The notes: generated by a model from the sequence alone, not told the origin. 64,000 nucleotides of DNA from an uncultured Pseudomonadota bacterium (GCA_949298405.1 CASFWA010000001.1:285127-349126); one strand, 5' to 3'; positions 10,873-54,396 are shown, counted from the first letter of the stretch. Made by a program: numbers and translations.

Positions 10873-11038
10873 TGACGGTTTCCCTTTTTATGCTTTTACC
10901 TATTAAAATATAATACAAAAATAAAATATGTCAATATATTGTGGTGAATTTTTATCTTTATGGGTAAAAATGTGAAAAAAGGCTTTTAATAAAATCTTAA
11001 TATATGATAAAATTAAATAAATGTTGAAAGGATTTTGG

Positions 11039-13981
11039 ATGAAAAAGTGGCTATTGTTTTCTGTATTATTAGCAAGTGTGGGGTTTAATGTAGATGCAGC
11101 AGTCCCACAGCAAAGACGCGGTTCTGCCAGTACACAAACGGCGGCAACGACTTCGTCTGTGCGTTCAAGTGCTGTGACTGCAAGAAGCGCGACTACTGCA
11201 CGTAGTGCAACGCAGACCACAATGCCGGCTGTTTCTGCACGTGCTGCAACAACAGGACGTACTACGGTTAATAGAAGTTCTACAAGTACCGCATCCGCTA
11301 CACCAGGTGTGGCTGCACGTGCCGCCACAACAAAAAGTGTTATAGGGTCTGGTACAAAGGTTGCAACTGCTACAGAAAATGTGATTGTTAGTGAAGAATG
11401 TCGCCAGAAGTATATGGGGTGTATGGATTCTTTCTGTATGCTGGATAATGATACAGGTGGACGCTGTATTTGTAGCGATAGAAACGCCGAATTAGATAGC
11501 GTTTTGGCAGAAATTGAAAAACTCGACCAACAAAGTTATCAAATGGCAACTGTTGGTGTCGAAAGAATAGAAATGGGCGACGCGGCTGATGCGGCAATAG
11601 CAAATGCTACTGCTGTTGCAGATGCTATATTAAACGCAGTTGATGAAAAAGAAGAAAGAAAATTAGATTTATCTTTGTGGGATACAACTTTTAGTTTTGC
11701 TGATGAAGATATTTTTGCAGAAGCAGATTCTTTGCAAAGTGCAATAGAAGGTAAAGAAGGTGATAGTTTATACCGTGCGGCATCTGATATATGTATGGCT
11801 CAAATCCCAGAATGTTCAAGTGAATTGGCTATGTTGCAGTTAATGTATTCACAGCAAATAAAATCTGATTGTACTGCTTATGAAAATAGTCTTAAACAGC
11901 AAAAAAATGCTAGCGCACAAAAATTAGCGGCTGCGGAAAAGGCTTTGCGTGATGCTGCGCTGGAACAGTATCAATCTGCTAATAAGTATGATTTGGGGCA
12001 ATGTACTGTTGAATTTAAAAACTGTATGATTACAACTGGTGGTTGTGGGGAAGATTTTGCAAATTGTGCTTCTGTCGCCGCATCTGATAATACAAATGTT
12101 ACACAAAGTACTTCAAAGAAAGCAAAGAGTTATAAAATTCAAGGCGCAGTGACAAGTATCGAAATTTCTGCTTCTACATATGATACTTTGGTCGCTAAAA
12201 AGCCTTTGTGTGAATCTGTGACAAAATCTTGCGTTGCAGTCGCAGATCAGGTTTGGGATACTTTCTTAAGAGAGGTCGCACCACAAATTAAGTCCGCAGA
12301 ATTAATTGCAGAAAATAATGCACGTCAGAATTGTGTCGGCTCTATTTCAGAATGTTTCCAAAAGGCTTGTAAAGATAATATCGATCCAAACGATCCAGAT
12401 GGTTCTTATGATATGTGTTTGACTCGTCCTGAAACGATGTTGAATGTATGTAAGATTCCTTTAAATGCTTGTGGAATTGATGCTTCCTCGGCAGAAAAAG
12501 CGTCTCAATCTCAGATTTGGGATTTCGTTGTTGCTAGATTAGCATCTATGCGTGTGGATTCTTGTACGACACAAGTTAAAGAATGCTTGCAATCAGAAGA
12601 CCGTTGCGGTTCAGACTATACACAGTGTGTCGGGTTGGATACGGATACAATTGTTCGTATGTGTCCTTATGATTCTTTGATTGGTTGTCAAATGGTATAC
12701 GGTGAAGATGAAATTCGTGGCGATGCGGTTTATGACGAATTGGCTAATATGGTTCAGGGCATTATGTTAAATATTGATAATAGTATGTTAACGGAATGCC
12801 AGAATGCTGCCAATGAAGCCATGATAAAAGTATGCGGTAGTTCTGAAAACTGTGATAATTTGACTGTTGAGGAGAATATCGGTGCGCGCTCTTTGGAATA
12901 TAAGATTTGTGAATATACTAATAGTGATGATAGTCTTGATATTGATTATGCAAGATGTAGAACAGATGTATCACAAATTATGGATTCTGAATTGGGGCGT
13001 GTCCATGGGGCAGTTGGTGCTGGATTAGGACCGGTAACGCCGTTTGCAGGTATTATAGATGGTACTATTTATTGGGAAAGTGTTGATTTTGATGAAGATG
13101 GAAAATTGATGAGTGTTGATGAATATCTTGCTGCCGTTGGTTCAGAAGGTGTTACAGAACAGCAGAAAGAAAAAATATCATCAGAACTTGCGGTTTTGCA
13201 ATCAAATATAAATGCGGCAATTTCTGCAATAGAAGCAGACCCGACAGTTCAATTCTGTATGACAGGGCGTGAAGTTCAGGGTATGCGTACGTCTCAAAGT
13301 GATACAAGACAAGTTATAGGTCGTAGCGGCGCAAATGAAGGACGTTTCCCAGAACTTACAAAACAGATGCGTTTGATGATTGCTACATCTGCTTTGAAAT
13401 CAGCAAAAGACAATTACTATAAAAAGTATGATGAATTAAGCGAAAAAATGCTGCAAGATTATGTCACCATCGGTGAAAGAATGGCAGAAATAGAAGGTGA
13501 AAATGCACTGGATGCACGTCGTGAAATTGCACGTGTTGCATGTATAAATTTTGCAGATGCTTCTATATTACCGAAATCGCCGAATCCACCTAAAAATGCG
13601 TTTGGTAAGGTTTTGGGTGCCTTGGCTTTTGTCGGAGCCGCTGTTGCAGCACCATTTACTGGTGGCTTGAGCTTGACCGCAACAATCGCTATCGGGGCTG
13701 GGTTGACTGGAACTGCGGCAATCGGATTGCTTGGAAATGTCGGCTCTGGTGGGGCAAATGGTGCGGACTCTTCACTGCAACGAGAGTTGATAGGATCAAA
13801 GTCGCTTAACCAGTGGAACTATAAGGAAACTATTACGGCGACATTCGAATGGGATACACTGATTTGTCATAAATGTGTAAGAAGTCAGCAGTGCAGTAAG
13901 ACTAAGAATCCATTGTTTGGTAGAAAGTACTGTAAGACTTGGGCAGACCCAGTAGAAACATGTGATGATACACAGTTCTAA
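11039..13981 (+). CDS. large secreted cysteine-rich coiled-coil protein with C-terminal glycine zipper (family member P1)
   Basis: Signal peptide MKKWLLFSVLLASVGFNVDA; R/S/T/A-rich tract; CRQKYMGCMDSFC...RCICS motif; two CGxDF/YxxC modules; G-rich hydrophobic segment; CHKC tail. ORF track start is 11021; ATG 11039 has the better RBS. Confidence 0.85.
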   Translation: MKKWLLFSVLLASVGFNVDAAVPQQRRGSASTQTAATTSSVRSSAVTARSATTARSATQTTMPAVSARAATTGRTTVNRSSTSTASATPGVAARAATTKSVIGSGTKVATATENVIVSEECRQKYMGCMDSFCMLDNDTGGRCICSDRNAELDSVLAEIEKLDQQSYQMATVGVERIEMGDAADAAIANATAVADAILNAVDEKEERKLDLSLWDTTFSFADEDIFAEADSLQSAIEGKEGDSLYRAASDICMAQIPECSSELAMLQLMYSQQIKSDCTAYENSLKQQKNASAQKLAAAEKALRDAALEQYQSANKYDLGQCTVEFKNCMITTGGCGEDFANCASVAASDNTNVTQSTSKKAKSYKIQGAVTSIEISASTYDTLVAKKPLCESVTKSCVAVADQVWDTFLREVAPQIKSAELIAENNARQNCVGSISECFQKACKDNIDPNDPDGSYDMCLTRPETMLNVCKIPLNACGIDASSAEKASQSQIWDFVVARLASMRVDSCTTQVKECLQSEDRCGSDYTQCVGLDTDTIVRMCPYDSLIGCQMVYGEDEIRGDAVYDELANMVQGIMLNIDNSMLTECQNAANEAMIKVCGSSENCDNLTVEENIGARSLEYKICEYTNSDDSLDIDYARCRTDVSQIMDSELGRVHGAVGAGLGPVTPFAGIIDGTIYWESVDFDEDGKLMSVDEYLAAVGSEGVTEQQKEKISSELAVLQSNINAAISAIEADPTVQFCMTGREVQGMRTSQSDTRQVIGRSGANEGRFPELTKQMRLMIATSALKSAKDNYYKKYDELSEKMLQDYVTIGERMAEIEGENALDARREIARVACINFADASILPKSPNPPKNAFGKVLGALAFVGAAVAAPFTGGLSLTATIAIGAGLTGTAAIGLLGNVGSGGANGADSSLQRELIGSKSLNQWNYKETITATFEWDTLICHKCVRSQQCSKTKNPLFGRKYCKTWADPVETCDDTQF

Positions 13982-13983
13982 AT

Positions 13984-14008
13984 AAAAGCCGCCAAAAGGC
14001 GGTTTTTA
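13984..14008. terminator. bidirectional intrinsic terminator
   Basis: AAAAGCCGCC-AAAA-GGCGGTTTTT between convergent genes. Confidence 0.75.
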
Positions 14009-15019
14009 TATTGTTTCTAAATCGCTTAGATTTTTTATAATCTTTATTCCTTGGGATTCCCATTCTGCGCAACGAGTTTCTAAATCCATTATATTTGTTT
14101 CTGCTAGATATAAAACAGGAACTTGTTTGTTGACAGATGTTCTTTCTAATAATTTTTTTATGGGCGAAGTTTTTCTTTTTCCTGCCGCAAACCAATCTTC
14201 GTTGTCCGCAATCCAGAAGTCGCTGTCGTTATGTATGGCGATAACTATATTTTGCGTTATTATCAAATCGTCGTCAATATTTACTTCCTGACCTTGTTTT
14301 ATTAAAATATTGATAAGGTCGTCTTGGATATTTGGTGCACTTTCGTTTGGTGCTTTTTTTGTCGGTTCTTCTTCGTCAAAGTTTATGTCTTGAAATACAG
14401 GTGTAAAATTCGGAACAGAAAAGTTCCCTTCTGAAAAATCTTCTTCTGAAAGATTTTCGCTTTCAAAATTAAAATCTGTCGGTAATGGTAATTCGCCTGC
14501 TGCTTGTGTTGCAGCAATTGTTTCTTTTACTGGTTCTTCGTTTTTTTGTTGCAATTCTGTGACATTACTTATATCAAAATTTGATTTTATAAAACTACGA
14601 TTGATGGTGCTGCGCGCACGTAAAAATGGTGCACGTAATTCCGCAGGTAGCCCTTGGGGAAATGTATCTTTTTCTTCTTCTTGTTCTTCTTTTTTTTCTG
14701 GTTCTGCTTCCGGTTCCTTTTTTTCTTCTGCAACAGGTTGCAAGAATTTTGGTAATGGAATTGTAAATAAAGGTTTCTTTGTCCTGATTATAATTGCAGT
14801 TGTTGCAGCATATAAGGGAAGGGCCGCCAACATTAATAATCCGAATACAAAACCTGGGAAACCGCGTAATTCGGCATGCATAAGTCTTATCCATTGGGCT
14901 TTTGAAAAAATATCAAAGTTGAATAAACCAAGCAAAATACCCCACATCAATGTTATATAGCATGCGGTCCATATCAGAGCATATTTGTTTGTTTTAAAAA
15001 AATCTAAGATTTTATTCAT
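14006..15019 (-). CDS. hypothetical membrane protein with acidic linker
   Basis: 337 aa; N-terminal hydrophobic helices (ALIWTACYITLMWGILLGLF, FVFGLLMLAALPLYAATTAIII); E/P/K-rich linker; C-terminal domain not recognised. Confidence 0.6.
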   Translation of the reverse strand: MNKILDFFKTNKYALIWTACYITLMWGILLGLFNFDIFSKAQWIRLMHAELRGFPGFVFGLLMLAALPLYAATTAIIIRTKKPLFTIPLPKFLQPVAEEKKEPEAEPEKKEEQEEEKDTFPQGLPAELRAPFLRARSTINRSFIKSNFDISNVTELQQKNEEPVKETIAATQAAGELPLPTDFNFESENLSEEDFSEGNFSVPNFTPVFQDINFDEEEPTKKAPNESAPNIQDDLINILIKQGQEVNIDDDLIITQNIVIAIHNDSDFWIADNEDWFAAGKRKTSPIKKLLERTSVNKQVPVLYLAETNIMDLETRCAEWESQGIKIIKNLSDLETI

Positions 15020-19992: not shown

Positions 19993-21492
19993 TTATTTTC
20001 GTTGTACTACACTTTTTGTTTCTTTTGATTCTGAACCCGCAGAAGAACTTGCGCCTGTTGTCGTAGTTTTTGCTTCATTACCTGATGCTTGTGCTGTTTT
20101 TTGTTCAGATGTTGAATTTGTTGTTGCAGGTGTTTCACCTTCTTTTTTACTACTATTAGAATTATCTTCGGATTGTGTGGCGTTAGAAGATGCAGGTTTG
20201 TCGCCATAGTTTTCCTGGTATTCTTTTTTTGCGTCTTTTAACGCACTTTCTGCTTTTTGTGTGTCTATTGCACGACTAATTGCACCAGATGTTAATGCGC
20301 CTGCAGCAACGCCAAGACCGGAACCCAGCAAACTTGATGTCGCAGATGTCTGTGTTCTGGTCAGTCTGTATGCATTTTCCATAAATGTTGTGACATCTAT
20401 ACCAAACCAATTAGGTGTACAATCAAATGTGTTTCCTGCGTACGCTTTTTTAGATGCATAAAGTGCAGAATCATCACCTGCATAAAATTCAACAGTATAA
20501 ACACAATCTAAACTACGTTCGTCAAACATAGCACCCAGCATGCGACATTGTTCCGCCATCTGGTCACGTAAATCATATAGACGTTCTTCGTCTTTTTGAA
20601 CTTGCTTCTCTGCATCTTGACGCAAAGTTGCAAAGACTTGCATAGTGCGATTCGCAAGACCATTATCTTGTTGTGTACAATTTTTTGCAATTGTTTCGCA
20701 TGCAGCAATCGCCGCATCGCCTGCGGCTTTGCCTAAACACTTGCTAAATGTTACCCCGCATTGGGTCATTATGCAGTCGTTGTATCTGTTCCCACAATCT
20801 ATCACAGCGTTATATGAAGCGAGACGTGCATTCATGTCGCGGTCTGCCTTTATTTCAGATGCAAACATTCTGTATTCTTCGCCATTGCATTCTGTTTCAC
20901 GACGACAAGAATCCATTTTGTTGCCCCAACTGGTGTCCGTGTCACCACTGCATTTAGAAAAGTCGTTACCGCATTTGCCTTGCATACATTTTCTTAAACC
21001 AATATCACATGCGTTTTGACCACTGGATAATGCGTTTTGCATTGTTTGTGTCGCTGTATTGGTCGCATCTTGTGCGTCTAATGCGGCGCGCTGGCGTTGT
21101 ATCATTTCTGCTAGTTCTGTGCTGGAAGAATCTGTTGCAGATGTACTGGTTGAACCTAAAACTTCGTCAAATTGTGAAGATTTATTTTCAATTACGATTT
21201 CTTCTTCTACTTCTGCGTCTTCTTCTACGGTTTCTTCTTCTTCATCGTCTGTTTCTGTGGTCGATGTGCTTTGACTTGGAGAAATGCTCATTGTAGGCAT
21301 CCGAGAAGTAATATTTGTTCTTGTCGCAACAGTCGGTCTGGATGCAGCAGAAGTTGTTGTCCCACGTTGAACAACTGCGCCATTGGAAGAGGTGGCAAAA
21401 AGTGCAATTACAGTTATGCATATCGCATGACTTAGTGTTCGCATAGTATGCGATTGTGATATGTAATGAAATTTTTTTATCATGCTCTTCAT
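19993..21492 (-). CDS. secreted cysteine-rich protein with glycine zipper (family member P5)
   Basis: Signal-like MRTLSHAICITVIALFATSSNGA (start may be 21444); acidic DDEEEETVEED tract; CMQGKCGNDFSKC and CIMTQCGVTFSKC modules; LLGSGLGVAAGALTSGAI. Confidence 0.75.
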   Translation of the reverse strand: MKSMIKKFHYISQSHTMRTLSHAICITVIALFATSSNGAVVQRGTTTSAASRPTVATRTNITSRMPTMSISPSQSTSTTETDDEEEETVEEDAEVEEEIVIENKSSQFDEVLGSTSTSATDSSSTELAEMIQRQRAALDAQDATNTATQTMQNALSSGQNACDIGLRKCMQGKCGNDFSKCSGDTDTSWGNKMDSCRRETECNGEEYRMFASEIKADRDMNARLASYNAVIDCGNRYNDCIMTQCGVTFSKCLGKAAGDAAIAACETIAKNCTQQDNGLANRTMQVFATLRQDAEKQVQKDEERLYDLRDQMAEQCRMLGAMFDERSLDCVYTVEFYAGDDSALYASKKAYAGNTFDCTPNWFGIDVTTFMENAYRLTRTQTSATSSLLGSGLGVAAGALTSGAISRAIDTQKAESALKDAKKEYQENYGDKPASSNATQSEDNSNSSKKEGETPATTNSTSEQKTAQASGNEAKTTTTGASSSAGSESKETKSVVQRK

Positions 21493-21503
21493 TATCTTTT
21501 TAT

Positions 21504-22370
21504 TTATTTTAATAGGTCACAGGCCAAATCGTAAAATTTACATAATTGTGTTGCCGCTGATTTTTCTGATTCATAACCAACTGCGCATTTGTTTGGCATA
21601 CTGCGTTCACAAACACTTTTTATACATGTTTCACGAGCTGTATTGTCTGTACATGCGGCCTTTGCATCAGATAATTTTTTGTCGCGTGCTGTTTGGTATG
21701 CAGTGACTATGTTGGATAATAATTTGTCTGCATTTGCAATTGCTGTATCGCGGTCAGATATAAGTGTGTCACGAATACTTGATATGTAATCATCACAACC
21801 GGTGGCTTCTACACTGCATGCAGCAAAAAAGTTGTTGAATTCTGCATCTGTTTCGCATGAACTAAAATCAGGACCACATTTTTTTGTGTCTATCATGCAT
21901 GCACGAATGTCTGTGCTGCAAGTTGTAGCACTGACCGGTTTCGCAGCAGCGGCACGAAGTTCTGTCATTTTTGCGCTGATACCAGCCGCTTTACAAGATT
22001 GTTCAATTAAACTGTCGTATACATCAGAAACATCGTCCGCAGTACAACCTTCTATTTTCTTTATACATTCGGCAGTTGCCCACGCATATCGTTTGCCGGG
22101 ATCCGATGGCGCGTCTTCTAATTCGTCTTCTGTTAGTATGTATTTGGTAGATTGCCCCAAGGTTAAACTGCGCATAGCATTAGAATTTGACGGTGTGCCA
22201 GCACTTGATGTTCCGCAATATTGACAGCGTGCCGCAGGGTTTGAAGATACATTTATTGCACATGCGGAATCAAGACAACGAGTTAAATTTGCTTGCGAGC
22301 AGGTTGCAGCAACGGAAATCGCTGGCATAAAATACAACCCAAGCACAAAAAATAAGGCTTTTTTCTTCAT
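21504..22370 (-). CDS. secreted cysteine-rich protein (family member P6)
   Basis: Signal peptide MKKKALFFVLGLYFMPAISVAA; CSQANLTRCLDSAC and CMIDTKKCGPDFSSC modules; 11-nt gap to the next gene. Confidence 0.75.
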   Translation of the reverse strand: MKKKALFFVLGLYFMPAISVAATCSQANLTRCLDSACAINVSSNPAARCQYCGTSSAGTPSNSNAMRSLTLGQSTKYILTEDELEDAPSDPGKRYAWATAECIKKIEGCTADDVSDVYDSLIEQSCKAAGISAKMTELRAAAAKPVSATTCSTDIRACMIDTKKCGPDFSSCETDAEFNNFFAACSVEATGCDDYISSIRDTLISDRDTAIANADKLLSNIVTAYQTARDKKLSDAKAACTDNTARETCIKSVCERSMPNKCAVGYESEKSAATQLCKFYDLACDLLK

Positions 22371-23242: not shown

Positions 23243-23362
23243 ATAATGATTTTCCTTTAATTTTTAGACCCGCCTTTATGGCGGGTGTTTTTTGCGAAAA
23301 AGTTTTTCCTAGACATATAATTCTGTTGTGTGTTAAAATATTTTCCATAGAGAGAATTGTTA

Positions 23363-40203: not shown

Positions 40204-42762
40204 TTATTGACCAGTAGTGTCATCTGTTCCTTCTTCGTCTGTTGCAGTCATTTGCTCTTTGTCCGCGCAATATCCCCACTTTGTATTAGCACCGGTTTCG
40301 TCATAGAAATATTTGTATAATATATGTCCTGTTATATCATGTATGTTGTCAGAACCTTCTATTAAGTCACTTGGAGCACGTGTCGTAGTGCCTGAATTTG
40401 CATCTTTTGGGTGCATTGTGTCAACCCATTGGGTGTCAACCCACACGCCGCCAAGACGCTCGCATTCGGCAGATAGTACCTTTGCCATTTCTACACGAAT
40501 TGAATCCATTACAACATTGACATCTTCTAAAACGGTTGTTGGTATATTTTTTCGACCAGCAGTAATTTCTTCTAAGTCTGAAGGACGTATACATACTTGG
40601 GCCGCATATTTTACCATTTTCTGGTACAAACTTCCTGCGTAGTCTGTCCCGCAATCAATTCCTTCTGTGTCGAATGATTCACCAACTGGTCCCTTGGTTC
40701 CACCAGGGCATTGTGCATCGGCAGGACATGCTATACAAGCATTGCCCGGAACTGGATTGGAATTGTATACCCAACTCCCAGATTCATTTTTTGTTGCAAG
40801 ATAATAACCAACATTACATGACGTGTATCGTTTGTATGAAGGGCATATATATCCCTTGCTAGGCGTGGAGGTAGGTGGTTCTGGAGTTATTTCAGATACA
40901 GAATCATTGCTTGATGACCATTGTAATTGGTTGCAGAACCAGTTAGCAGCATAAATTTGATCGCCGGGTGCATAAACACGACAGCCATAAGGGTAAGAAT
41001 GTAAACTGTCATTGCTTGGTACTGCACACATATCAACCGCAAATTCTTTTAACAATGTTGCGCATTCCTGGGCAATTTTCTGGTCTGTTATGTTATGCAT
41101 AGCAGTTATTAGCAATTCTAAACCATTGCCATTTGGGTCGCCGTATAGATTGCTGCATGCATATAATTTTTCTTGGCATAGTTCTTCTGATAGTTCTAAA
41201 CGAGAACCAAGTAGCAATTCTTCTTTTATGTTTGTAAAGTCTTTTAATGATTCACTTTGTTCGTCATAGCAGGCGTTTACAACATCTAAACATTCATTCT
41301 TTACATTTCTAATTTTTTCTTGCTGTCCTTGATAAATTTCTGTAATTGCTTGACGCATAAATTCGTCCCATACTTCGTCGGCAATATCACGACAAGTTTC
41401 TAAGCCGCGTTCCGCAAAACTACGTTTCCTATTTAATTCCGCAACAAGCATGCGATTTGTCGGATTGGTTAATATGTCTCCACTTAAAGAGGTTTGGGCT
41501 TCTAATTGATAAAAGTCTTGGGTGTAAATTGGTTCGCCCGTTTCACGATTTAAATATCGACCCGTTATATCCAGACAGTGTACGTAATCTTCACCACATG
41601 CATTATCCGCTGTTATGTCTTTGCGAACCTGGGCAATACAATCGTTTATAGAAGTAGAATTATGGGCGTTATAATTGTCAAGACGAGCCATATTCATTTC
41701 GCGTTCTGTGTCGCGTATTGTACTGTTTGCTTGGTTTAAACTTTTATCAAGCGCATTTGCTAATGTTGTGCAGTCGTTTTCAATGTACATACCATAAGCA
41801 GATACAACCATGTTAAAGGTTGCTGTTGATGTGCAGTTTCCAGATACCAGTTCTGCACATTGTGCATGAACAGCATTGTAAAGTGATTCACCTGTTAAAT
41901 TTATAATGTTTTCACCTGATGCCAGGTCCGTTGTTGCCCATATCTGATTTATGTCGCCGGCGATGTCCAGAGTACCTAGGGTGGATAAGGATTTTGACTT
42001 CGTTGATGATAATACATCACTTATTCCTGCTAGTTTCTGAGCAGATGCGGAATTGTCCGTTTTTATAGCACTTTCGCCTTCTGATGCAGAAAGCATCGCT
42101 TTTACTTCTTCAGCGGTTTTAGGTATTACTTCCAGATTTAAATCTTTGAAATCTTGGATTTGATTCGCACTTTGTGATAATGCGCGTTCTTTTTCTTGAA
42201 TTTCGGAAAGACGAGAAGAACAAACACAACGACGATAAGAGTCATTCGCGTTCGCACAAAATTGATCCATACATGTGAAATATGCATCGCGACATGAATT
42301 ATAACTTGTTCCAAATGTATTCGTCGATGATGTAGATATTGTAGATGCACGACCAGGTGTTAATGCAGAACGTACAGATGGGGTCACCGTTTTTCTGGGA
42401 GTTGCAGTTGTCCTTACAACAGAATTGTTTGCCGCATTTCGCGAAGTTGCCGATTGTGCTGAATTGGATGTGCTGCGGGCAGCGGTTGCACTGCGTGAAA
42501 CATTAGATTGAGTAATATTTTTTGTAGATGCGGTTCTGGAAATTATGTTGCCTGTATCGCGCGTTGTTGTGTTCGTTGTTGTTCTGTTCGTAGTGTCTTG
42601 CCCCTGAATAGTCGCGGCCGAGTTGGTCGCAGCACGCGCAATAACTGTGGCAACACTTGAATCTTTTGAATTTCTATTTATGGATTCTGTACTACGAACA
42701 GCAGCATCGACACAGCCGATGCCTATGCTATACGCTAGTACAAAAAGCAAAAACCTTTTCAT
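40204..42762 (-). CDS. large secreted cysteine-rich coiled-coil protein (family member P2) with a CxxCP module in the C-terminal part
   Basis: Signal peptide; long R/S/T/N-rich tract; CRDAYFTCMDQFC...RCVCS; ACGEDYVHC; CNVGYY...GNACIACPADAQCPGG. Confidence 0.85.
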   Translation of the reverse strand: MKRFLLFVLAYSIGIGCVDAAVRSTESINRNSKDSSVATVIARAATNSAATIQGQDTTNRTTTNTTTRDTGNIISRTASTKNITQSNVSRSATAARSTSNSAQSATSRNAANNSVVRTTATPRKTVTPSVRSALTPGRASTISTSSTNTFGTSYNSCRDAYFTCMDQFCANANDSYRRCVCSSRLSEIQEKERALSQSANQIQDFKDLNLEVIPKTAEEVKAMLSASEGESAIKTDNSASAQKLAGISDVLSSTKSKSLSTLGTLDIAGDINQIWATTDLASGENIINLTGESLYNAVHAQCAELVSGNCTSTATFNMVVSAYGMYIENDCTTLANALDKSLNQANSTIRDTEREMNMARLDNYNAHNSTSINDCIAQVRKDITADNACGEDYVHCLDITGRYLNRETGEPIYTQDFYQLEAQTSLSGDILTNPTNRMLVAELNRKRSFAERGLETCRDIADEVWDEFMRQAITEIYQGQQEKIRNVKNECLDVVNACYDEQSESLKDFTNIKEELLLGSRLELSEELCQEKLYACSNLYGDPNGNGLELLITAMHNITDQKIAQECATLLKEFAVDMCAVPSNDSLHSYPYGCRVYAPGDQIYAANWFCNQLQWSSSNDSVSEITPEPPTSTPSKGYICPSYKRYTSCNVGYYLATKNESGSWVYNSNPVPGNACIACPADAQCPGGTKGPVGESFDTEGIDCGTDYAGSLYQKMVKYAAQVCIRPSDLEEITAGRKNIPTTVLEDVNVVMDSIRVEMAKVLSAECERLGGVWVDTQWVDTMHPKDANSGTTTRAPSDLIEGSDNIHDITGHILYKYFYDETGANTKWGYCADKEQMTATDEEGTDDTTGQ

Positions 42763-43258: not shown

Positions 43259-45412
43259 ATGAAATTAAGATTTGTTTTGGCGGTTTTATTAACGTTCCCA
43301 GGTTTCGCTTTCGCGGCAGAACGCGCAGATTCTAATGTCAGAGTTGGCGTAAATCGTATGTCTATGGCGGGGGTGCGGGTGCCTAATATGACTGCGAATA
43401 TTACTACAAATACAACTAATCCTACAATGTCGACTAAGCCAGCAGGAACAACAAGTTCTAATTCTACGGGCAGTTCCACGACAAATGAAAATACGGATGC
43501 ATCTGATGATGATGCTGGTTCACAAACAGGAAGTCAATCTTGCCGAGATGCGTATCGTGCGTGTATGGATGAATTTTGTTTGTTAGATGAATCAGAAGGG
43601 AACCGTTGTGCTTGTTCGTCTAATATTAATCAATCAAAATCTTTAATACAAGAAATTCAGGAAATTCAAGAAGAAGCGGATTTGCTTTATACAGAGGGGG
43701 TCGAAAGAGAACAGTTGGGGGCCCAGGCAAAATTGGTTTTCGGAGAAAGTGAACAGGCAAAGAAAAGTTCCGCAGTTTCGGGGATAAATTTCTTAGATTG
43801 GATAAGTAGTGGGACCGAAGAAGAAGTTAGTCTTGGCGCAGATGCGGATATTGGTGATTCTTTATATGCGATGGCTTCACAATTTTGTTCTGATAAATTA
43901 GCAGCGTGTGGTAGCAGTGCGGAAATGGAAGAAGTTTTGTATGCGCGTCAAATAGTTCAAGATTGTAAATCTTTTGAATCTTATTTAAATGATCAAAAGT
44001 CTATTGCTGAATCTAATAAACGTACGGCAGAAGCGGCGGTGCGCCAAGCACGCTTAGAAATGTTGGATACAACAAATAAGTATAATCGTGGTGAATGTTT
44101 GTTGGCTTATCGTGCATGTATTTCTGATAAGGGCGGTTGTGGTGTAAACTTTGAAAATTGTTTAGATGCTGATTTGTTGGGTAGACGTGCGAATGCTTGT
44201 GAAAATGTATTAGACCAATGTATGGCTGTTCGTGAATATGTGTTGGAAGATTGGGAGGCAGAGGCAGAAAGTATACTTGTTGATGCGGCAAAGTATGCCG
44301 ATAGAAACGCAAGGGCTACGTGTTTGGCAAGAATACAGGTATGCTTAGAAGACGGGTGCTCTACAGAAACTAACTCTGCTTGTTTGACGGATGTTAATGT
44401 TGCGGCGGGAATTTGTCCTGTTATTGATGAGTGTGAATCAATGATTCCAGGTATTAAATCTGTGGTAAATGATAAGTTAGGATATTTGCGTACTCAATTC
44501 TGTCAAAATGATATTGACCAGTGTTTGCGCGATAGATGTGGTGATAACTTTACTGCACCAGAATGCGTTGGTAAAAGTGCAATTGAAATTGCTGAACTTT
44601 GTCCGCAATCAATGTTTCCGTCTTGTAAAAATGAAACTCAGTTTGACATAATTGTTCAGGCGGCTTTGTTGCAGATGGATTATCAAATGTTGCAGGGATG
44701 TTTAAATTATTTTGGGGAACAACTTGGTAATGTTTGCGGAACAGATATGTCTTGTTTGCCAACTGATACAAAAATTACGTCTTTGGTTGCTGTGCCAGAT
44801 ACAGAAGAGGGCTTGGCTGAATTGCGTGAAACTGTTAGAGCAAATACAGAAGCGGCAGTTGATGATTTCTTTGTTCAGTTTGAAAAAGATAAAACAGTTG
44901 CTGCTTGTCAGGATAGTCAAAAACCTGCTGATCAGAAAAGGTTAGGTGAAAGTGTATTTAATAGTGCAAAGCTAGTTGCACAAATTAGTGCGGAAAATCG
45001 TGCTATGCGTGAACTAGAAAGCAAAATTGCTGAGTTATCGCGTGAGCAGGATTTAGAAGCGGCAGAACAAAACTGTTTAAACACGTATAAAGTAGAAACG
45101 CCAGATAAGTCTAGCAAAAACTATAGTTATATACGTAGTGTATCTTTTGAGCCGGCCTTGCGTAATTGCCATGTTTGCCGTATGCAACAAGTTTGTGAAG
45201 TTGGCGGTGAAAGTAAAGGTGCTGCTGGGGTAAAAGGATTGGCTGGTGGTTTGTCCGCTGGTGCAGCAGCAGGAACAATGGTTTCACCGGGTTGGGGAAC
45301 TGCCATCGGTGGCGTCGTTGGTGCTGTGGGCGGTTTCTTCGCAGGCCGTAGTGCTGGCGGCGAACAAGAATTCTGTCAGGAAATTGAGAGTTGTGAAGAT
45401 ATAAATATGTAA
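43259..45412 (+). CDS. large secreted cysteine-rich coiled-coil protein with C-terminal glycine zipper (family member P3)
   Basis: Signal peptide MKLRFVLAVLLTFPGFAFA; CRDAYRACMDEFC...RCACS; GGCGVNFENC; CGDNFTAPEC; CHVC; WGTAIGGVVGAVGGFFAG. Confidence 0.85.
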   Translation: MKLRFVLAVLLTFPGFAFAAERADSNVRVGVNRMSMAGVRVPNMTANITTNTTNPTMSTKPAGTTSSNSTGSSTTNENTDASDDDAGSQTGSQSCRDAYRACMDEFCLLDESEGNRCACSSNINQSKSLIQEIQEIQEEADLLYTEGVEREQLGAQAKLVFGESEQAKKSSAVSGINFLDWISSGTEEEVSLGADADIGDSLYAMASQFCSDKLAACGSSAEMEEVLYARQIVQDCKSFESYLNDQKSIAESNKRTAEAAVRQARLEMLDTTNKYNRGECLLAYRACISDKGGCGVNFENCLDADLLGRRANACENVLDQCMAVREYVLEDWEAEAESILVDAAKYADRNARATCLARIQVCLEDGCSTETNSACLTDVNVAAGICPVIDECESMIPGIKSVVNDKLGYLRTQFCQNDIDQCLRDRCGDNFTAPECVGKSAIEIAELCPQSMFPSCKNETQFDIIVQAALLQMDYQMLQGCLNYFGEQLGNVCGTDMSCLPTDTKITSLVAVPDTEEGLAELRETVRANTEAAVDDFFVQFEKDKTVAACQDSQKPADQKRLGESVFNSAKLVAQISAENRAMRELESKIAELSREQDLEAAEQNCLNTYKVETPDKSSKNYSYIRSVSFEPALRNCHVCRMQQVCEVGGESKGAAGVKGLAGGLSAGAAAGTMVSPGWGTAIGGVVGAVGGFFAGRSAGGEQEFCQEIESCEDINM

Positions 45413-45480: not shown

Positions 45481-47985
45481 ATGAAAGTAAAAAATCTTTT
45501 TGGGTTTATGTCAGGGTTGATTGCGTGTGGTATGATAACAGGGGCCTATGCTTTGACTAGTACGACCGCCACAAAGCAATCTGCGATACAAAAGGGTACA
45601 ACGGTTAGGACTCGTGTTGCGGCTACCAGTTTGTATGATCAAGCCTGCTATGATGCTTATTTCGGATGTATGGATCAGTTCTGTATTACGGATAATTCTA
45701 ATGGTGGTAGTTGTACTTGCAGTGATGATAGTATTGAATATGAAAAAGAATTTGCAGAAATTCAGGCTATATTAGAAGAGGCTAATAGAATTAATACTGT
45801 GGAAGTTGAACGTGTAAAAGCGGGTGCAGATGCTGATATTATTTTTACTGGTGAACGTAGATATGATGCAGATGGTAATATAATAAGTGACAATGAGTTA
45901 ATAGAAGCAGAAAAAAAAGAACAAGAACGCGCAAGTTTGTTGGCTCTGTTCGAAAATACTTTATATACAGAAGATGATGTCTTTGAAGATACGGTTAGCA
46001 CAATAGCAGATAAAACAGGGGCAGAGTTATATAGTGCTGCACACGAACTATGTTATGCACAGGTTCCTGATTCTTGTGCAGGTGATATAGAATTTTTACG
46101 TCAATTATATGCAAGACAAATAACTTCTGATTGTTTGGGCTTTAAAAATACTTTGACGGAAAAAAGAGCCGCGGCAGAACTTGAACTGGCAAATGCGGAG
46201 TCTGCTGTTAGAAATGCTTTGAAAGAAAGTTTCGAAGAAGCGAATAAATATGACCTTGGTCAGTGTATGGTTGAGTTTAAAAAATGTATGCAGACAGAAG
46301 ATGCCTGCGGAGAAAACTGGGAAAATTGTGTTTCTACTATCGCTTCTGAAAATATGCAGAATAATGAAGCTGTTAGTACTGCAGGAACAAAGGTTAAAAC
46401 GGTTGAAACTTATGATATAACTGCGTCTACGATGGAAATACTGGAAGCGAAACGAACAATTTGTGAATCCGTTTTGGATAATTGTGTCGCAGTTCGTGAT
46501 ATGGTTTGGCCAAGTTTTTTAAGAGAAGCGGCACCAACAATAAATGTTGCAGAAATGCAGGCAGAATCAAAATTCCGCCAGTCTTGCTTAACTAACATCT
46601 CAAATTGTATTCAGAATGCGTGTAGAGATGATATTGCAGGGAAGGGTATCGCAACTATGGACGCTTGTTTATCTAGACCTGATATGGCGCGTAGTTTCTG
46701 TAAGGTTGAAATTGACCCTTGTGAACGTATGGAACCTTTAATCTGGGGATATGTGGAAGATAAATTAGCCGCAATGAGAGTCGATGCTTGTACACAAGAA
46801 GTTAAAGATTGTTTTACTGCGGATACAAGGTGCGGTAAAGATTTTGAAAATTGTATAGGTATGGATTATGATTATATAAAAAATATTTGTCCATTGGATT
46901 CTTTGGTAGTTTGTAAAGCTAATAACCCAGATTTTTCAATGGATGATTTGGACAGTATGTTGATGGGTTTATATCTGAATATCGATAATGCTGCTATGGA
47001 ACAATGTCAGAATTTGGTTGACCAAAAAATGGCCGAGGTTTGTGGCAGTACAACAGACTGTAATAGGTTTGCCGCAGATGATACTATTGGGACAGGCTCT
47101 TTGCGTTCACAGAAAGATGGTACTACATATCGTGTGACTGGTATGATTTCTTTCGGTAGTATAAAAATGGGTGATGCGGCAGGAACTGTTATAGATGATG
47201 GTGAAGGTGGACGTGTCACATTAGAACCTGGTGAAATTGGTGTTCAAGAATACCTTGCAAAAGTTCGTGCAAATAATTCAGGGGTTGCAAATTCTGAAGC
47301 AATTATTTCTTCTATTGAAGAAGAGTTGAATAATATTGCAGGAACGATAAATCGTACAATTACTATGATAGAACAAGACCCAGAAATACAATATTGTGTA
47401 AATGGGCGTGATTTATCACAGATAACTGGAAAAGCAGGTGAAAAAACTTCTGGGCGGTTCCCAAATCTGCTGAATCAGGTTAAAATGCAAATCGCGGTCG
47501 CTGCTTTGCGTCAAGCGCAAGATAATTATAATGCAAAGTTAAATTATGAGGTCGCAGAGGCAACTAAAAATGCGTCTACTGATTTAGCACAGTATATGTG
47601 TCAAAAGATTGCAGAAAATGGTGGTGCTGGTAGCGGCGACGTCATCGCATCTACACCATTAACCGCTCCTTATGCAATTAGTTATGATGTCGGATCCGGC
47701 TTGTCTACAGAAGATTTAACAAAAGGTGGTGCAGGTGTTTTGCAGGCTGGTGGTGTGACATTTAAAAATAGCGGATATTTGGGTGGTGCTAGCATGAGTG
47801 GTGGTGGTATGACCAAAGAAGTCACAGCAATATTTAGTCGTGATACAAGAACTTGCCATATCTGTACAACTGTGACTGTGGAAAATTGCAAAACAACAGG
47901 TAGTAGCAGTTGGTTCCATAATAGTAGAAATACAAGTTGTACGACCGAAGTAGCAAAATCTGAATGCGAAGATATTGTTATGTGA
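45481..47985 (+). CDS. large secreted cysteine-rich coiled-coil protein (family member P4, collinear with P1)
   Basis: Signal peptide MKVKNLFGFMSGLIACGMITGAYA; CYDAYFGCMDQFC...SCTCS; ACGENWENC; RCGKDFENC; G-rich segment; CHIC tail. ORF track start 45466 is TTG. Confidence 0.85.
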   Translation: MKVKNLFGFMSGLIACGMITGAYALTSTTATKQSAIQKGTTVRTRVAATSLYDQACYDAYFGCMDQFCITDNSNGGSCTCSDDSIEYEKEFAEIQAILEEANRINTVEVERVKAGADADIIFTGERRYDADGNIISDNELIEAEKKEQERASLLALFENTLYTEDDVFEDTVSTIADKTGAELYSAAHELCYAQVPDSCAGDIEFLRQLYARQITSDCLGFKNTLTEKRAAAELELANAESAVRNALKESFEEANKYDLGQCMVEFKKCMQTEDACGENWENCVSTIASENMQNNEAVSTAGTKVKTVETYDITASTMEILEAKRTICESVLDNCVAVRDMVWPSFLREAAPTINVAEMQAESKFRQSCLTNISNCIQNACRDDIAGKGIATMDACLSRPDMARSFCKVEIDPCERMEPLIWGYVEDKLAAMRVDACTQEVKDCFTADTRCGKDFENCIGMDYDYIKNICPLDSLVVCKANNPDFSMDDLDSMLMGLYLNIDNAAMEQCQNLVDQKMAEVCGSTTDCNRFAADDTIGTGSLRSQKDGTTYRVTGMISFGSIKMGDAAGTVIDDGEGGRVTLEPGEIGVQEYLAKVRANNSGVANSEAIISSIEEELNNIAGTINRTITMIEQDPEIQYCVNGRDLSQITGKAGEKTSGRFPNLLNQVKMQIAVAALRQAQDNYNAKLNYEVAEATKNASTDLAQYMCQKIAENGGAGSGDVIASTPLTAPYAISYDVGSGLSTEDLTKGGAGVLQAGGVTFKNSGYLGGASMSGGGMTKEVTAIFSRDTRTCHICTTVTVENCKTTGSSSWFHNSRNTSCTTEVAKSECEDIVM

Positions 47986-53568: not shown

Positions 53569-54396
53569 ATGACTTGGACAATTTTGGTTCTAGTAGTTGG
53601 TATTCTTCTGTTCATGTTTGGTGGCATGATGTTGCCAAAAGGTGACGGGAAAAAACCTTCTGCAAAAAATATCGTATTACACAAATCTATCAAATTGATT
53701 TCAATCATTTTGATTTCTGGCAGTATCTGCCGCTTGTATGTTCCATATTATTTGACTGCGGTAAATCCTATTATCGTTCAGGAAATGGTAAACGGTATGC
53801 AAGAACAGCAGCAGGCTGAAAAAAATAAACAAATTCGCAAAATGGTTCGCTCTGAAGGCGAAAAAATGATGGCTGATGCACCTGTATTGGGTAATCGCGA
53901 TGCGAAAAAAACAATTTATGTTTGGACAGATTTCTCTTGCCCATACTGCCGCCGTGTACACGGGGAATTGGATAGAGTTTTGTCAGAACGTGACGATGTT
54001 CGCGTAGTTGTAAAGAATTTCTCTATTCATGGTCCTTTGTCTGATGGTCCTGCAAAAGCAGTTATCGCTGCTAAATTACAGAGCCCAGAAAAAGCAGCAA
54101 AATTAACAGATATGTTAATGACACGCGAATTCTATACTCAGGACGATTTGAAAGATCAGTCAAAAATTGCTGAAAAAGTTGAAGCAAATGTTATGAAAAT
54201 GGCAGAAGAAGCAGGTTTGGATACTGCAAAGTTGAAAGAAGATATGAACGGTGAAGTAGTTGCTCGTGAATTGAGAAACGTTCGTGACTTGGCTCAGCAG
54301 TTCGAAATCAGCGGTACACCATTCTTAATCATCGGTGAACAAGCATTCCCAGGTGCAATACCTTATGCTCAGATTAACGATGCTTTGAATGATTAA
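53569..54396 (+). CDS. membrane-anchored DsbA-family thiol:disulfide oxidoreductase
   Basis: N-terminal TM; WTDFSCPYCRRVH (CxxC); C-terminal ...GTPFLIIG. Confidence 0.8.
   Translation: MTWTILVLVVGILLFMFGGMMLPKGDGKKPSAKNIVLHKSIKLISIILISGSICRLYVPYYLTAVNPIIVQEMVNGMQEQQQAEKNKQIRKMVRSEGEKMMADAPVLGNRDAKKTIYVWTDFSCPYCRRVHGELDRVLSERDDVRVVVKNFSIHGPLSDGPAKAVIAAKLQSPEKAAKLTDMLMTREFYTQDDLKDQSKIAEKVEANVMKMAEEAGLDTAKLKEDMNGEVVARELRNVRDLAQQFEISGTPFLIIGEQAFPGAIPYAQINDALND

What the first reader, a model, noticed from the sequence alone, without database searches (positions are those of the whole stretch)
11021..13981. Founding member of an unrecognised family of giant secreted cysteine-rich, coiled-coil, glycine-zipper proteins
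This ~980-aa protein has five parts in order. (1) A signal peptide. (2) An Arg/Ser/Thr/Ala-rich low-complexity tract (VTARSATTARSATQTT...SARAATTGRTT...AARAATTK). (3) A block CRQKYMGCMDSFCMLDNDTGGRCICS followed by heptad-like sequence. (4) Repeated modules of the form C-x(3-6)-C-G-x-[DNT]-[FYW]-x(2-3)-C (NCMITTGGCGEDFANC, ECLQSEDRCGSDYTQC). (5) A C-terminal hydrophobic Gly-rich stretch (VLGALAFVGAAVAAPFTGGLSLTATIAIGAGLTGTAAIGLLGNVGSGG), then a Cys tail (ICHKCVRSQQC...YCKTW...TCDD). It is collinear end to end with the 45481-47985 protein and shares its N-terminal ~350 aa with the proteins at 40204-42762 and 43259-45412. I do not recognise the block as any named domain. The architecture suggests a disulfide-locked, membrane-inserted or oligomeric surface protein.
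Basis: partly seen in the sequence, partly recalled or inferred. Interest (0 to 1): 0.8.

Follow-up and report, generated by a model that had tools for sequence, protein, structure and literature searches.

The report
Uncharacterised disulfide-stapled bacterial envelope protein
A real, strongly conserved gene of an uncultured small-genome gut bacterium (Candidatus Enterousia) encodes an exported, mostly helical 980-residue protein that is probably held together by about 19 disulfide bonds; it belongs to a large family that no domain database or solved structure explains, so its role in the cell envelope is inferred, not known.

Summary
The ORF is real and all five described parts are present. 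The likely start is ATG 11039 (M7), giving 980 aa.

The family is genuine but this gene is not its "founding member". More than 1000 sequence clusters exist in public data. All located relatives are in gut Alphaproteobacteria MAGs (Ca. Enterousia, order Rs-D84), and the few named by a source are called hypothetical.

Nothing known matches it. Pfam, NCBIfam, PHROGs, PDB sequences, and Foldseek against PDB and BFVD gave no significant hit. A fairly confident AlphaFold model (mean pLDDT 76) shows:
- a disordered basic tail;
- a long helical body;
- a low-confidence hydrophobic loop;
- a small C-terminal β-domain.

Three results support structural disulfides:
- Cysteines are nearly invariant and are lost in pairs.
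- Cysteine counts are even in 100 of 115 representatives.
- A DsbA-like gene lies in the window.

dN/dS is 0.05, so selection is strongly purifying.

The target's hydrophobic stretch contains no glycine-zipper motif. Paralog C and a neighbouring ORF do carry true zippers.

Best reading: a Sec-exported, disulfide-stapled structural envelope protein, possibly tethered by a hydrophobic hairpin. Function and location are inferred. Novel as a family, moderately interesting.

The parts
11027..11032 (+). Shine-Dalgarno-like AAAGGA, 6 nt before ATG 11039
   Evidence: Read directly from the sequence.
11039..13981 (+). Coding sequence of the target (980 aa plus stop).
   Evidence: ORF list. M7-K8 are invariant in the paralogs. 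The public gene call is 980 aa. dN/dS is 0.049 against a 96%-identical ortholog.
11039..11098 (+). Sec signal peptide, with predicted signal peptidase I cleavage VDA|A
   Evidence: Hydropathy. The -3/-1 rule was applied by eye (inference). There is no lipobox, and only 9 of 237 relatives have one.
11099..11380 (+). Basic, disordered Ala/Arg/Ser/Thr low-complexity tail (residues 27-120)
   Evidence: 71% ARST, net charge +10, four AR[AS]AT repeats. pLDDT below 50. The tail is net positive in 93% of 121 representatives, while the rest of the protein is net negative in 100%.
11393..13570 (+). Acidic, mostly alpha-helical, Cys-stapled body (residues 125-850), with helices up to 58 residues
   Evidence: AlphaFold model, pLDDT mostly 80-95. 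29 Cys between residues 127 and 611 are at least 94% conserved. Cys are lost in pairs.
11399..11473 (+). Family signature block C-x6-CMDxFC-x9-C-x-C (residues 127-151)
   Evidence: Invariant or nearly invariant in 77 and in 148 sequences. Present in exactly four window ORFs.
11996..12082 (+). Cys module copy 1: C-x6-C-x6-CG-x-DF-x2-C (residues 326-354)
   Evidence: hhalign against copy 2 gives probability 94.8%. Module HMM score 54 bits.
12557..12643 (+). Cys module copy 2 (residues 513-541)
   Evidence: 59.5 bits.
13610..13765 (+). Charge-free Gly/Ala-rich hydrophobic run (residues 864-915), bilobed around PFTGG. Candidate membrane hairpin; not a glycine zipper.
   Evidence: 52 residues without D/E/K/R (shuffle maximum 44). 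Kyte-Doolittle hydropathy above 1.4. pLDDT below 50. No zipper motif or zipper Pfam hit. The equivalent run is 0-136 residues long in relatives.
13790..13978 (+). C-terminal five-stranded beta-domain with 5 Cys (residues 924-986), ending in ...TCDDTQF
   Evidence: pLDDT above 90. Co-loss pairs C952-C981 and C958-C971. C949 is left to pair with C841 (the last pairing is inferred).
13982..14009 (.). Bidirectional intrinsic terminator (12-bp stem) shared with the convergent gene 14006-15019
   Evidence: Terminator scan.
45481..47985 (+). Paralog B. Collinear with the target, but its equivalent of the hydrophobic run contains charged residues.
   Evidence: BLASTP 35% over 750 aa, E 1e-137. Alignment A1. 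No hydrophobic segment after the signal peptide.
43259..45412 (+). Paralog C. Shares the body to about residue 605 of the target and carries a true glycine zipper near its C-terminus.
   Evidence: BLASTP E 3e-39. 15 overlapping zipper motifs against 5.1 in shuffles. Gly-zipper_Omp scores 18.5 bits, below the 25-bit cut-off.
40204..42762 (-). Paralog D. Shares the tail and body to about residue 442 of the target and has a different Cys-rich C-terminal half.
   Evidence: BLASTP E 7e-26. Alignment A1.
19993..21492 (-). Shorter secreted Cys-rich ORF (499 aa, 16 Cys) carrying the same CG-x-DF-x2-C module twice
   Evidence: Module HMM E 2.3e-4 and motif matches. Sequence.
21504..22370 (-). Shorter secreted Cys-rich ORF (288 aa, 20 Cys) carrying the module once
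   Evidence: Module HMM E 4.3e-7. Sequence.
53569..54396 (+). Membrane-anchored DsbA-like thiol:disulfide oxidoreductase (CPYC), the likely oxidant for the family
   Evidence: Pfam DSBA PF01323, E 9e-21. N-terminal TM segment seen in the sequence. The functional link to the target is inferred.

Best explanation
The gene encodes a Sec-exported, disulfide-stapled structural protein of the cell envelope of Candidatus Enterousia (order Rs-D84, reduced-genome gut Alphaproteobacteria).

Proposed sequence of events (steps marked inferred are not shown):
1. The signal peptide is cut at VDA|A.
2. A DsbA-type oxidase forms about 19 disulfides (inferred).
3. Many disulfides come from C-x6-C pairs on one face of a helix that bond to a second pair on a facing helix. 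An example is C438/C445 with C484/C477 (inferred from co-loss). This turns a long acidic helical body into a rigid, protease-resistant rod or bundle.
4. A basic, disordered tail of about 95 residues precedes the body and probably holds it to an anionic envelope component (inferred).
5. Near the C-terminus, a charge-free hydrophobic loop is closed at its base by an inferred C841-C949 bond. It dips into a membrane as a hairpin, leaving both flanks on the oxidising side (inferred).
6. A small disulfide-knotted beta-domain ends the chain.

The protein is one of at least four ancient paralogs. Two have hydrophobic cassettes and two do not. With shorter module-bearing proteins, they may form or brace an envelope-associated assembly (inferred). 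It is probably not an enzyme.
For: Real, constrained gene:
- dN/dS is 0.049 at dS 0.41. That is tighter than L17 (0.105) and the neighbouring envelope genes (0.085-0.25).
- It has its own terminator.
- Synteny next to rpoA-rplQ is conserved in about 56 of 78 loci.

Exported:
- A signal peptide is present and most relatives have no lipobox.

Disulfides:
- 36 of the 85 positions conserved at >=85% are Cys.
- Cys are lost strictly in pairs: 450/466 in 21 of 21 sequences and 438/484 in 5 of 5. Jaccard indices are 0.83 for 952/981 and 0.76 for 958/971.
- Cys counts are even in 100 of 115 representatives, p = 1.4e-16.
- C-x6-C occurs 11 times against 1.4 expected.
- A DsbA-like gene lies in the window.

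Fold:
- The AlphaFold model has mean pLDDT 76, with long helices and a C-terminal beta-domain.

Not an enzyme:
- Only 2 His, neither conserved, and no catalytic motif.
- No Pfam domain is fused in 50 diverse members.

Charge dipole:
- It is conserved family-wide.

Hydrophobic loop:
- A 52-residue charge-free run is flanked by conserved Cys on both sides.

Lineage:
- It has a reduced genome and is suspected to depend on a partner. It is reported to encode many unexplained membrane proteins (PMC12306168).
Against: - There is no direct evidence of localisation, oligomerisation or disulfide state.
The C841-C949 pairing is confounded by loss of the whole C-terminal region.
- The hydrophobic run is modelled at pLDDT below 50. 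It has no basic loop and no zipper motif. It is absent or charged in many relatives, including paralogs B and D. Anchoring therefore cannot be the core function.
- No peptidoglycan-, LPS- or OMP-binding domain was recognised.
- The lineage is reported to lack respiratory chains (PMC12306168), so it is unclear how DsbA would be re-oxidised.
- "Structural" is largely an argument from the absence of catalytic features.
Confidence: 0.45

Rival explanations
1. Partner-directed surface effector or adhesin. The protein crosses the outer membrane by an unidentified route. The disulfide-armoured rod projects from the cell, and the charge-free cassette inserts into the membrane of a host or partner cell to attach or to open a pore for nutrient uptake or killing. 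This would work as glycine-zipper toxins do.
For: - The lineage lacks most biosynthesis and standard transporters and is suspected to live off a partner (PMC12306168).
- Heavy disulfide stapling suits an extracellular life in the gut.
- Charge-free runs of 36-136 residues occur in relatives.
- Paralog C and ORF 15156-17243 carry true glycine zippers.
- Glycine zippers drive surface aggregation and membrane attack in CdzC/D (PMC5380434).
- The neighbourhood is rich in surface genes, including a PMP-type autotransporter and an ankyrin protein.
Against: - No outer-membrane translocation signal, partner secretion gene or immunity gene was recognised.
- dN/dS of 0.05 is low for an exposed protein in an arms race.
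- The target itself has no zipper motif.
- The cassette is dispensable in many relatives.
- No relatives were found in phages or plasmids, and chromosomal synteny is conserved. Cdz-like systems, in contrast, are often laterally acquired (PMC5380434).
Confidence: 0.2
2. Soluble periplasmic protein with a non-structural role, such as a thiol/redox buffer, a metal (Zn or Fe) store using its cysteines, or a holdase.
For: - There are 38 Cys.
- Four Cys (335, 397, 515, 529) are lost together in 15 sequences. This could reflect one tetra-Cys metal site rather than two disulfides.
- The lineage's source of oxidising power is unclear (PMC12306168).
Against: - The other co-losses are strictly pairwise.
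- Spacing is heptad C-x6-C on helices, not CxxC. Only one CxxC is present.
- His is almost absent.
- A DsbA-like gene is present.
- A 980-residue rod with a basic tail is an odd design for a buffer.
Confidence: 0.08
3. Autotransporter-like adhesin. The C-terminal beta-strands ending in Phe would form (as an oligomer) an outer-membrane barrel through which the helical stalk is exported, as in trimeric autotransporters.
For: - The layout is signal peptide, long helices, then 5 C-terminal beta-strands.
- The last residue is Phe in the target and its orthologs.
Against: - No YadA_anchor or Autotransporter hit even at E<=1 on the isolated C-terminal domain or the whole protein. The true autotransporter at 35333-39307 scores E 7e-33.
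- The domain is polar, with K/R and 5 conserved Cys.
- Paralogs B and C end in Met, and many relatives lack the domain.
Confidence: 0.03
4. Not a functional gene: a chance ORF or a decaying pseudogene.
For: None found.
Against: - The 2.9-kb ORF is intact in dozens of species.
- dN/dS is 0.049.
- A Shine-Dalgarno sequence and a terminator are present.
- The Cys skeleton is invariant.
Confidence: 0.01

Closest known systems
Helicobacter cysteine-rich proteins (HcpB, HcpC; Sel1-like repeat fold)
   Same: - Sec-exported and all-alpha.
- Helices are tethered by conserved disulfides that lock the packing geometry (PMC3851747).
   Different: - No Sel1 (or any other) Pfam hit in the target, its paralogs or 50 relatives.
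- No regular 36-38-residue repeat. Only one 29-residue module is duplicated.
- Cys spacing is C-x6-C on helices.
- Three to seven times larger.
- Foldseek against PDB, which should include the deposited HcpB and HcpC entries (1KLX, 1OUV), found nothing at E<=1e-3.
Twin CX9C / CX3C (CHCH) helix-loop-helix proteins of the mitochondrial intermembrane space
   Same: The structural principle is shared. Two Cys on one face of a helix bond to two Cys on the antiparallel helix, giving nested disulfides. This is inferred here for C438/C445 with C477/C484. The CHCH description rests on established knowledge and PMC12114033.
   Different: - Spacing is 6, not 9 or 3.
- Bacterial DsbA setting, not Mia40/CHCHD4.
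- About 100 kDa multi-helix body rather than about 10 kDa.
- No sequence relationship was detected.
- The pairing is not verified on coordinates.
Glycine-zipper membrane proteins: Pfam Gly-zipper_Omp (PF13488), Glycine zipper 2TM / Rickettsia 17-kDa antigen (PF05433), and the Caulobacter CdzC/CdzD contact-dependent toxins
   Same: - Charge-free Gly/Ala-rich hydrophobic segment near one end of an exported protein.
- Paralog C, ORF 15156-17243 and ORF 19993-21492 carry real zipper motifs.
- CdzC/D belong to another alphaproteobacterium (PMC5380434).
   Different: - The target has no zipper motif and no zipper Pfam hit at E<=1.
- Paralog C is below the Pfam cut-off (18.5 against 25 bits).
- Cdz toxins are 84-86 aa and exported by type I secretion next to an immunity gene. 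None of this applies here.
Chlamydial cysteine-rich envelope proteins (OmcB/OmcA of the outer membrane complex)
   Same: From my own knowledge, not tested here beyond Pfam:
- Cys-rich exported envelope proteins of a host-dependent bacterium.
- They cross-link by disulfides.
- OmcB has a basic N-terminal region.
The window also encodes a Chlamydia-PMP-type autotransporter.
   Different: - No sequence or fold similarity was detected.
- The chlamydial proteins are not long helical bundles.
- Intermolecular cross-linking is not shown here.

Membership tests
Glycine-zipper families (Pfam PF13488, PF13441, PF05433) | Profile match above the family's gathering score | tested here: not met
   The target, both whole and as the isolated stretch 850-930, gives no hit at E<=1. 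The paralog C stretch scores 18.5 bits against a 25-bit cut-off.
Glycine-zipper families (Pfam PF13488, PF13441, PF05433) | Repeated (G/A/S)xxxGxxxG or GxxxGxxx(G/S/T) motif in a hydrophobic segment | tested here: not met
   The target has 0 motifs against a shuffle mean of 2.3. Paralog C has 15 against 5.1 (p = 0.003).
Sel1-like repeat / Helicobacter cysteine-rich proteins | Tandem 36-38-residue alpha/alpha repeats matching the Sel1 profile, with inter-repeat disulfides | tested here: not met
   No Sel1 hit at E<=1 in the target or paralogs, or at E<=1e-3 in 50 relatives. Only one duplicated 29-residue module. No Foldseek hit in PDB.
Trimeric / classical autotransporters | C-terminal YadA_anchor or Autotransporter beta-domain | tested here: not met
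   No hit at E<=1 on the whole protein or the isolated C-terminal 57 residues. Positive control: ORF 35333-39307 scores E 6.6e-33.
Bacterial lipoproteins | Lipobox [LVI][ASTVI][GAS]C at the end of the signal peptide | tested here: not met
   The target's signal peptide has no Cys. Only 9 of 237 family members have a lipobox-like match.
Class II bacteriocins / microcins (PF10439) and Cdz-like toxins | Small peptide with a double-glycine or type I secretion leader, next to an exporter and an immunity gene | tested here: not met
   The protein is 980 aa with a Sec signal peptide. Only paralog C gives a sub-threshold Bacteriocin_IIc hit (17.2 against 27.1 bits). No ABC exporter or immunity gene was recognised among the neighbours.
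Twin CXnC helical-hairpin (CHCH-like) proteins | Two CXnC motifs on antiparallel helices joined by nested disulfides | tested here: inconclusive
   C-x6-C is enriched 8-fold. Both Cys of several pairs lie in single predicted helices. C438 and C484 are lost together. Spacing differs from CX9C and CX3C.
Disulfide-bonded exported proteins (DsbA substrates) | Cys oxidised in pairs in an extracytoplasmic compartment | not testable with these tools
   Indirect support only: even Cys counts in 100 of 115 representatives, pairwise co-loss, a signal peptide and a DsbA-like gene.
Phage or plasmid cargo | Relatives encoded on phage or plasmid records | tested here: not met
   tblastn found no match at E<=1e-3 in 50,697 phage and 72,556 plasmid records. 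The only PHROG hit is to paralog C's Gly-rich stretch.

The most novel reading that the evidence does not exclude
The four paralogs, the shorter module-bearing proteins (19993-22370) and the zipper-bearing neighbour (15156-17243) would together form a lineage-specific, disulfide-armoured contact apparatus. A biosynthetically crippled gut bacterium would use it to fasten to a partner cell and to breach that cell's membrane. The basic tails would hold the rods on the producer. The charge-free or glycine-zipper cassettes would enter the partner's bilayer. This would be a new kind of cell-cell interface, unrelated to known secretion systems or toxins.
Probability: 0.12. Interest if true: 0.85.

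Novelty: categorically new. Interest (0 to 1): 0.55.

Why it matters
Candidatus Enterousia and its order Rs-D84 are widespread in human, ruminant, horse and bird guts. Their genomes are under 1 Mb and lack most biosynthesis, respiration and standard transporters. How they live is unknown (PMC12306168).

This family takes about 10 kb of such a genome for the four paralogs alone. It is conserved more tightly than ribosomal protein L17 (dN/dS 0.049 against 0.105). It has no detectable relative of known function or structure. It is therefore a prime candidate for the lineage's unexplained envelope or partner-contact biology.

It also raises a concrete biochemical puzzle. These cells are reported to lack respiratory chains, yet each copy apparently needs about 19 disulfides.

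"Categorically new" here refers to the family and fold. No library tried recognises them. The function is still unassigned, and AlphaFold DB and HHpred could not be consulted.

Tried and rejected
- Lipoprotein anchoring. Paralogs B and D have a Cys in or near the signal peptide. The idea was dropped because the Cys is not conserved and only 9 of 237 relatives have a lipobox.
- Trimeric-autotransporter anchor for the C-terminal beta-domain. No profile hit, a polar Cys-rich sequence, and a non-aromatic last residue in the paralogs.
- Glycine zipper in the target itself. No motif and no Pfam hit.
- Rosetta-stone search for fused known domains in the 50 longest or most diverse relatives. Nothing was found except one sub-threshold DUF7631 hit.
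- Phage or plasmid origin. No matches.
- Sequence search of PDB with the paralog profile. Only E>6 noise.
- Foldseek of the full model against PDB and BFVD. Best E values were 0.057 and 0.09 with TM about 0.06.
- Literature searches for Enterousia, Rs-D84, CX6C and cysteine-rich gut Alphaproteobacteria. No description of the family was found.
- Technical dead ends. The 148-sequence alignment A2 was too large for structure prediction and for Pfam, and too divergent for locus scanning. Smaller alignments A3 and A4 and the four-paralog alignment A1 were used instead.
- Disulfide geometry could not be read from the model because coordinates are not returned.


Full report
**What is there**

- The window holds an intact ORF at 11021..13981 (+), 986 aa.
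- The true start is most likely ATG 11039 (M7).
  - An AAAGGA Shine-Dalgarno sequence sits 6 nt upstream.
  - M7-K8 are invariant among the paralogs.
  - The identical protein is called as 980 aa in a public assembly.
- A 12-bp-stem bidirectional terminator follows the stop codon at 13982-14009.
- The gene lies just after the ribosomal-protein/secY/rpoA/rplQ cluster and a divergent DUF3419/CheR-like methyltransferase gene.

**The five parts are real and non-random**

1. A signal peptide is present, with no lipobox.
2. Residues 28-120 are 71% A/R/S/T against 33% overall. Net charge is +10 in a protein of net -41. There are four AR[AS]AT repeats. AlphaFold models this tract as disordered.
3. The block C127-x6-CMDSFC-x9-C-x-C is invariant in 77 relatives that fall to about 20% identity.
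4. The module C-x6-C-x6-CG-x-D-[FY]-x2-C occurs at 326-354 and 513-541. The two copies align with hhalign probability 94.8%.
5. Residues 864-915 form a 52-residue run without any D/E/K/R (shuffle mean 21, maximum 44). A Cys-bearing tail follows.

Eleven of the 37 gaps between consecutive cysteines are exactly 7 residues, that is C-x6-C. Shuffles give 1.4 +/- 1.2.

**Paralogs**

| Paralog | Coordinates | BLASTP against the target |
|---|---|---|
| B | 45481-47985 | 35% over 750 aa, E 1e-137; MAFFT also aligns the Cys tail |
| C | 43259-45412 | 25% over 530 aa, E 3e-39 |
| D | 40204-42762 | 24% over 520 aa, E 7e-26 |

- A profile of the four paralogs finds no other window ORF.
- A profile of the 31-residue module alone also hits ORF 21504-22370 (E 4e-7) and ORF 19993-21492 (E 2e-4). 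Both are secreted and Cys-rich.
- The module is therefore shared by a wider set of secreted proteins.

**Who has it**

- The word-indexed search found at least 1015 relatives. The top 120 are full-length and 62-95% identical. None carries a Pfam domain, and the only names given are "hypothetical protein [Alphaproteobacteria bacterium]".
- An exhaustive profile search of 1.84 billion representatives found 1018 clusters at E<=1e-3, of which 486 are at E<=1e-30.
- In species-representative genomes, 135 relatives were found with close patterns and 291 with paralog-level patterns.
  - Nearly every listed locus is titled Candidatus Enterousia, uncultured Alphaproteobacteria, proteobacterium or Rickettsiales; one contig is filed under a Bacteroides fragilis bin. 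Where the record title names a host it is cattle, sheep, yak, deer, water buffalo, horse or chicken.
  - One locus is 96% identical.
  - Paralogs often sit in tandem.
- The ortholog sits beside rpoA-rplQ in about 56 of 78 loci. It is followed by the same two ORFs (14006-15019 and 15156-17243) in about 50.
- The lineage (order Rs-D84) has genomes under 1 Mb.
  - It lacks a TCA cycle, respiratory chains, flagella, and amino-acid, nucleotide and fatty-acid synthesis.
  - It is suspected to depend on partner cells.
- "Founding member" is therefore wrong, but "unrecognised family" is right.

**It is a working gene under strong constraint**

Against the 96%-identical ortholog (dS 0.41), dN/dS values are:

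| Gene | dN/dS |
|---|---|
| RpoA | 0.006 |
| SecY | 0.019 |
| Target | 0.049 |
| ORF 15156 | 0.085 |
| L17 | 0.105 |
| ORF 14006 | 0.17 |
| OmpA-like 17681 | 0.25 |

Across species the target keeps 69-74% identity, while the OmpA-like neighbour keeps 44-54%. This is not the behaviour of a rapidly diversifying surface antigen.

**No known family or fold matches**

- Pfam and NCBIfam gave no hit at E<=1.
- PHROGs gave none for the target.
- A PDB sequence search with the paralog profile gave only E>6.
- Pfam on 50 diverse or long relatives found no fused known domain.
- tblastn against phage and plasmid collections found nothing.
- AlphaFold2 with a 77-sequence alignment gave mean pLDDT 76 and pTM 0.54. 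The model shows:
  - disorder at 22-120, 207-236 and 862-914;
  - long helices (263-320, 405-453, 781-825) with pLDDT 80-95;
  - two small beta-hairpins;
  - a five-stranded C-terminal beta-domain (924-985, pLDDT above 90).
- Foldseek found no match at E<=1e-3 in PDB (best E 0.057, TM 0.06) or in BFVD.
- AlphaFold DB and HHpred were not available.

**Disulfides**

- Of the 85 positions conserved at >=85%, 36 are Cys. His occurs twice and is not conserved. No catalytic motif is present.
- Where cysteines are missing in relatives they vanish in pairs:
  - 450 with 466 (21 of 21 sequences);
  - 438 with 484 (5 of 5);
  - 952 with 981, 958 with 971, 522 with 548, 630 with 646 and 841 with 949 (Jaccard 0.71-0.83);
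  - 335, 397, 515 and 529 together in 15 sequences.
- Cys counts downstream of the first block are even in 100 of 115 representatives (p = 1.4e-16).
- A membrane-anchored DsbA-like protein (CPYC motif) is encoded at 53569-54396.
- C438 and C445 share one predicted helix, and C477 and C484 share the next helical stretch. The 438-484 co-loss therefore suggests nested bonds 438-484 and 445-477, a "twin C-x6-C" hairpin analogous to twin CX9C proteins. This pairing is inferred because coordinates were not returned.
- By elimination, C949 pairs with C841. That would close the hydrophobic run into a loop. The signal is confounded by whole-domain loss.

**The hydrophobic stretch is not a glycine zipper here**

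- The target's run contains no (G/A/S)xxxGxxxG or GxxxGxxx(G/S/T) motif (shuffle mean 2.3).
- It gives no zipper Pfam hit at E<=1.
- Paralog C has 15 overlapping motifs (shuffle 5.1, p = 0.003) and sub-threshold Gly-zipper_Omp and Bacteriocin_IIc hits.
- ORF 15156-17243 has two zippers and ORF 19993-21492 has one.
- Among 118 representatives, 25 have a charge-free run of at least 35 residues; about 20 of these are Gly/Ala-rich hydrophobic stretches (up to 136 residues) near the C-terminus, and most members lack one.
- The cassette is therefore an optional insertion between conserved Cys. Any anchoring it provides is accessory to the function of the helical body.

**A conserved charge dipole**

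In 121 representatives:
- the post-signal tail has a median length of 95 residues;
- it is 69% A/R/S/T/G/N;
- it is net positive in 93% (median +8, Arg-biased);
- the remainder of the protein is net negative in 100% (median -24).

**Most likely mechanism** (confidence 0.45)

- The protein is a Sec-exported, DsbA-oxidised, disulfide-stapled helical structural protein of the envelope.
- A basic tail probably holds it to an anionic envelope component.
- In this paralog, a hydrophobic hairpin may tether it, leaving both flanks on the oxidising side.
- It probably acts together with its paralogs.
- Shown: the gene is real and constrained, it has the exported-protein architecture, it carries disulfide signatures, and it matches no known family.
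- Inferred: the disulfide pairing, the membrane hairpin, tail binding, assembly and compartment.

**Rivals**

| Rival | Confidence |
|---|---|
| Partner-directed membrane-inserting effector or adhesin | 0.2 |
| Redox or metal-binding periplasmic protein | 0.08 |
| Autotransporter-like adhesin | 0.03 |
| Non-gene | 0.01 |

The remaining probability is "something else".

**Verdict**

- The family and fold are new to every library available.
- The function is unassigned.
- Interest is moderate (0.55). The family is a well-defined, abundant and tightly conserved unknown in a poorly understood gut lineage. It comes with an attached puzzle about disulfide formation without respiration. No mechanism has yet been demonstrated.

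Noticed in passing
window 19993-21492 (-) and 21504-22370 (-): Two adjacent secreted Cys-rich ORFs (499 aa with 16 Cys; 288 aa with 20 Cys) carry the same C..C..CG-x-DF-x2-C module as the target. The full-length family profile does not detect them. They hint at a wider superfamily of module-bearing secreted proteins, and they are syntenic with the target in many genomes.
   Followed up: partly
window 15156-17243 (+): A 695-aa ORF with a signal peptide, 26 Cys, two true glycine zippers and no Pfam hit. It follows the target in 51 of 78 loci and has dN/dS 0.085. Just after its signal peptide it shares the motif RMPTM[SP]I with ORF 19993-21492.
   Followed up: partly
window 53569-54396 (+): A membrane-anchored DsbA-like thioredoxin-fold protein with a CPYC motif (PF01323, E 9e-21). 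No DsbB or VKOR partner was seen in the window. The lineage is reported to lack respiratory chains, so the source of oxidising power is unexplained (PMC12306168).
   Followed up: partly
window 35333-39307 (+): A 1324-aa autotransporter with Chlamydia polymorphic-membrane-protein repeats (Autotransporter E 7e-33; Chlam_PMP E 6e-19). It lies just upstream of the paralog cluster.
   Followed up: no
window 23357-27079 (+): A 1240-aa ORF with a signal-peptide-like N-terminus. It has only a weak ankyrin-repeat match (Ank_4, 22.4 bits against a 22.7-bit cut-off) and is otherwise unannotated.
   Followed up: no
window 30482-31570 (-): A choloylglycine (bile-salt) hydrolase family protein (PF02275, E 2e-66), consistent with a gut habitat.
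   Followed up: no
window 39441-40145 (-): A 234-aa secreted ORF with 9 Cys and no Pfam hit, immediately downstream of paralog D on the same strand.
   Followed up: no
window 14006-15019 (-): This ORF converges on the target and shares its terminator. It is 337 aa with N-terminal transmembrane segments, a very acidic linker and no Pfam hit. It is syntenic with the target in 50 of 78 loci.
   Followed up: no
window 17681-19981 (-): A 766-aa protein with an N-terminal CarboxypepD_reg domain and a C-terminal OmpA domain. It evolves much faster than the target (dN/dS 0.25; 44-54% identity between species).
   Followed up: no
family-wide (proteins P0121-P0270): The C-termini of many relatives end in a short conserved motif such as C-[ED]-D-[IT]-x-[FM], or ...I-[KQ]-M. 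The last residue is usually hydrophobic. Its meaning is unknown.
   Followed up: no
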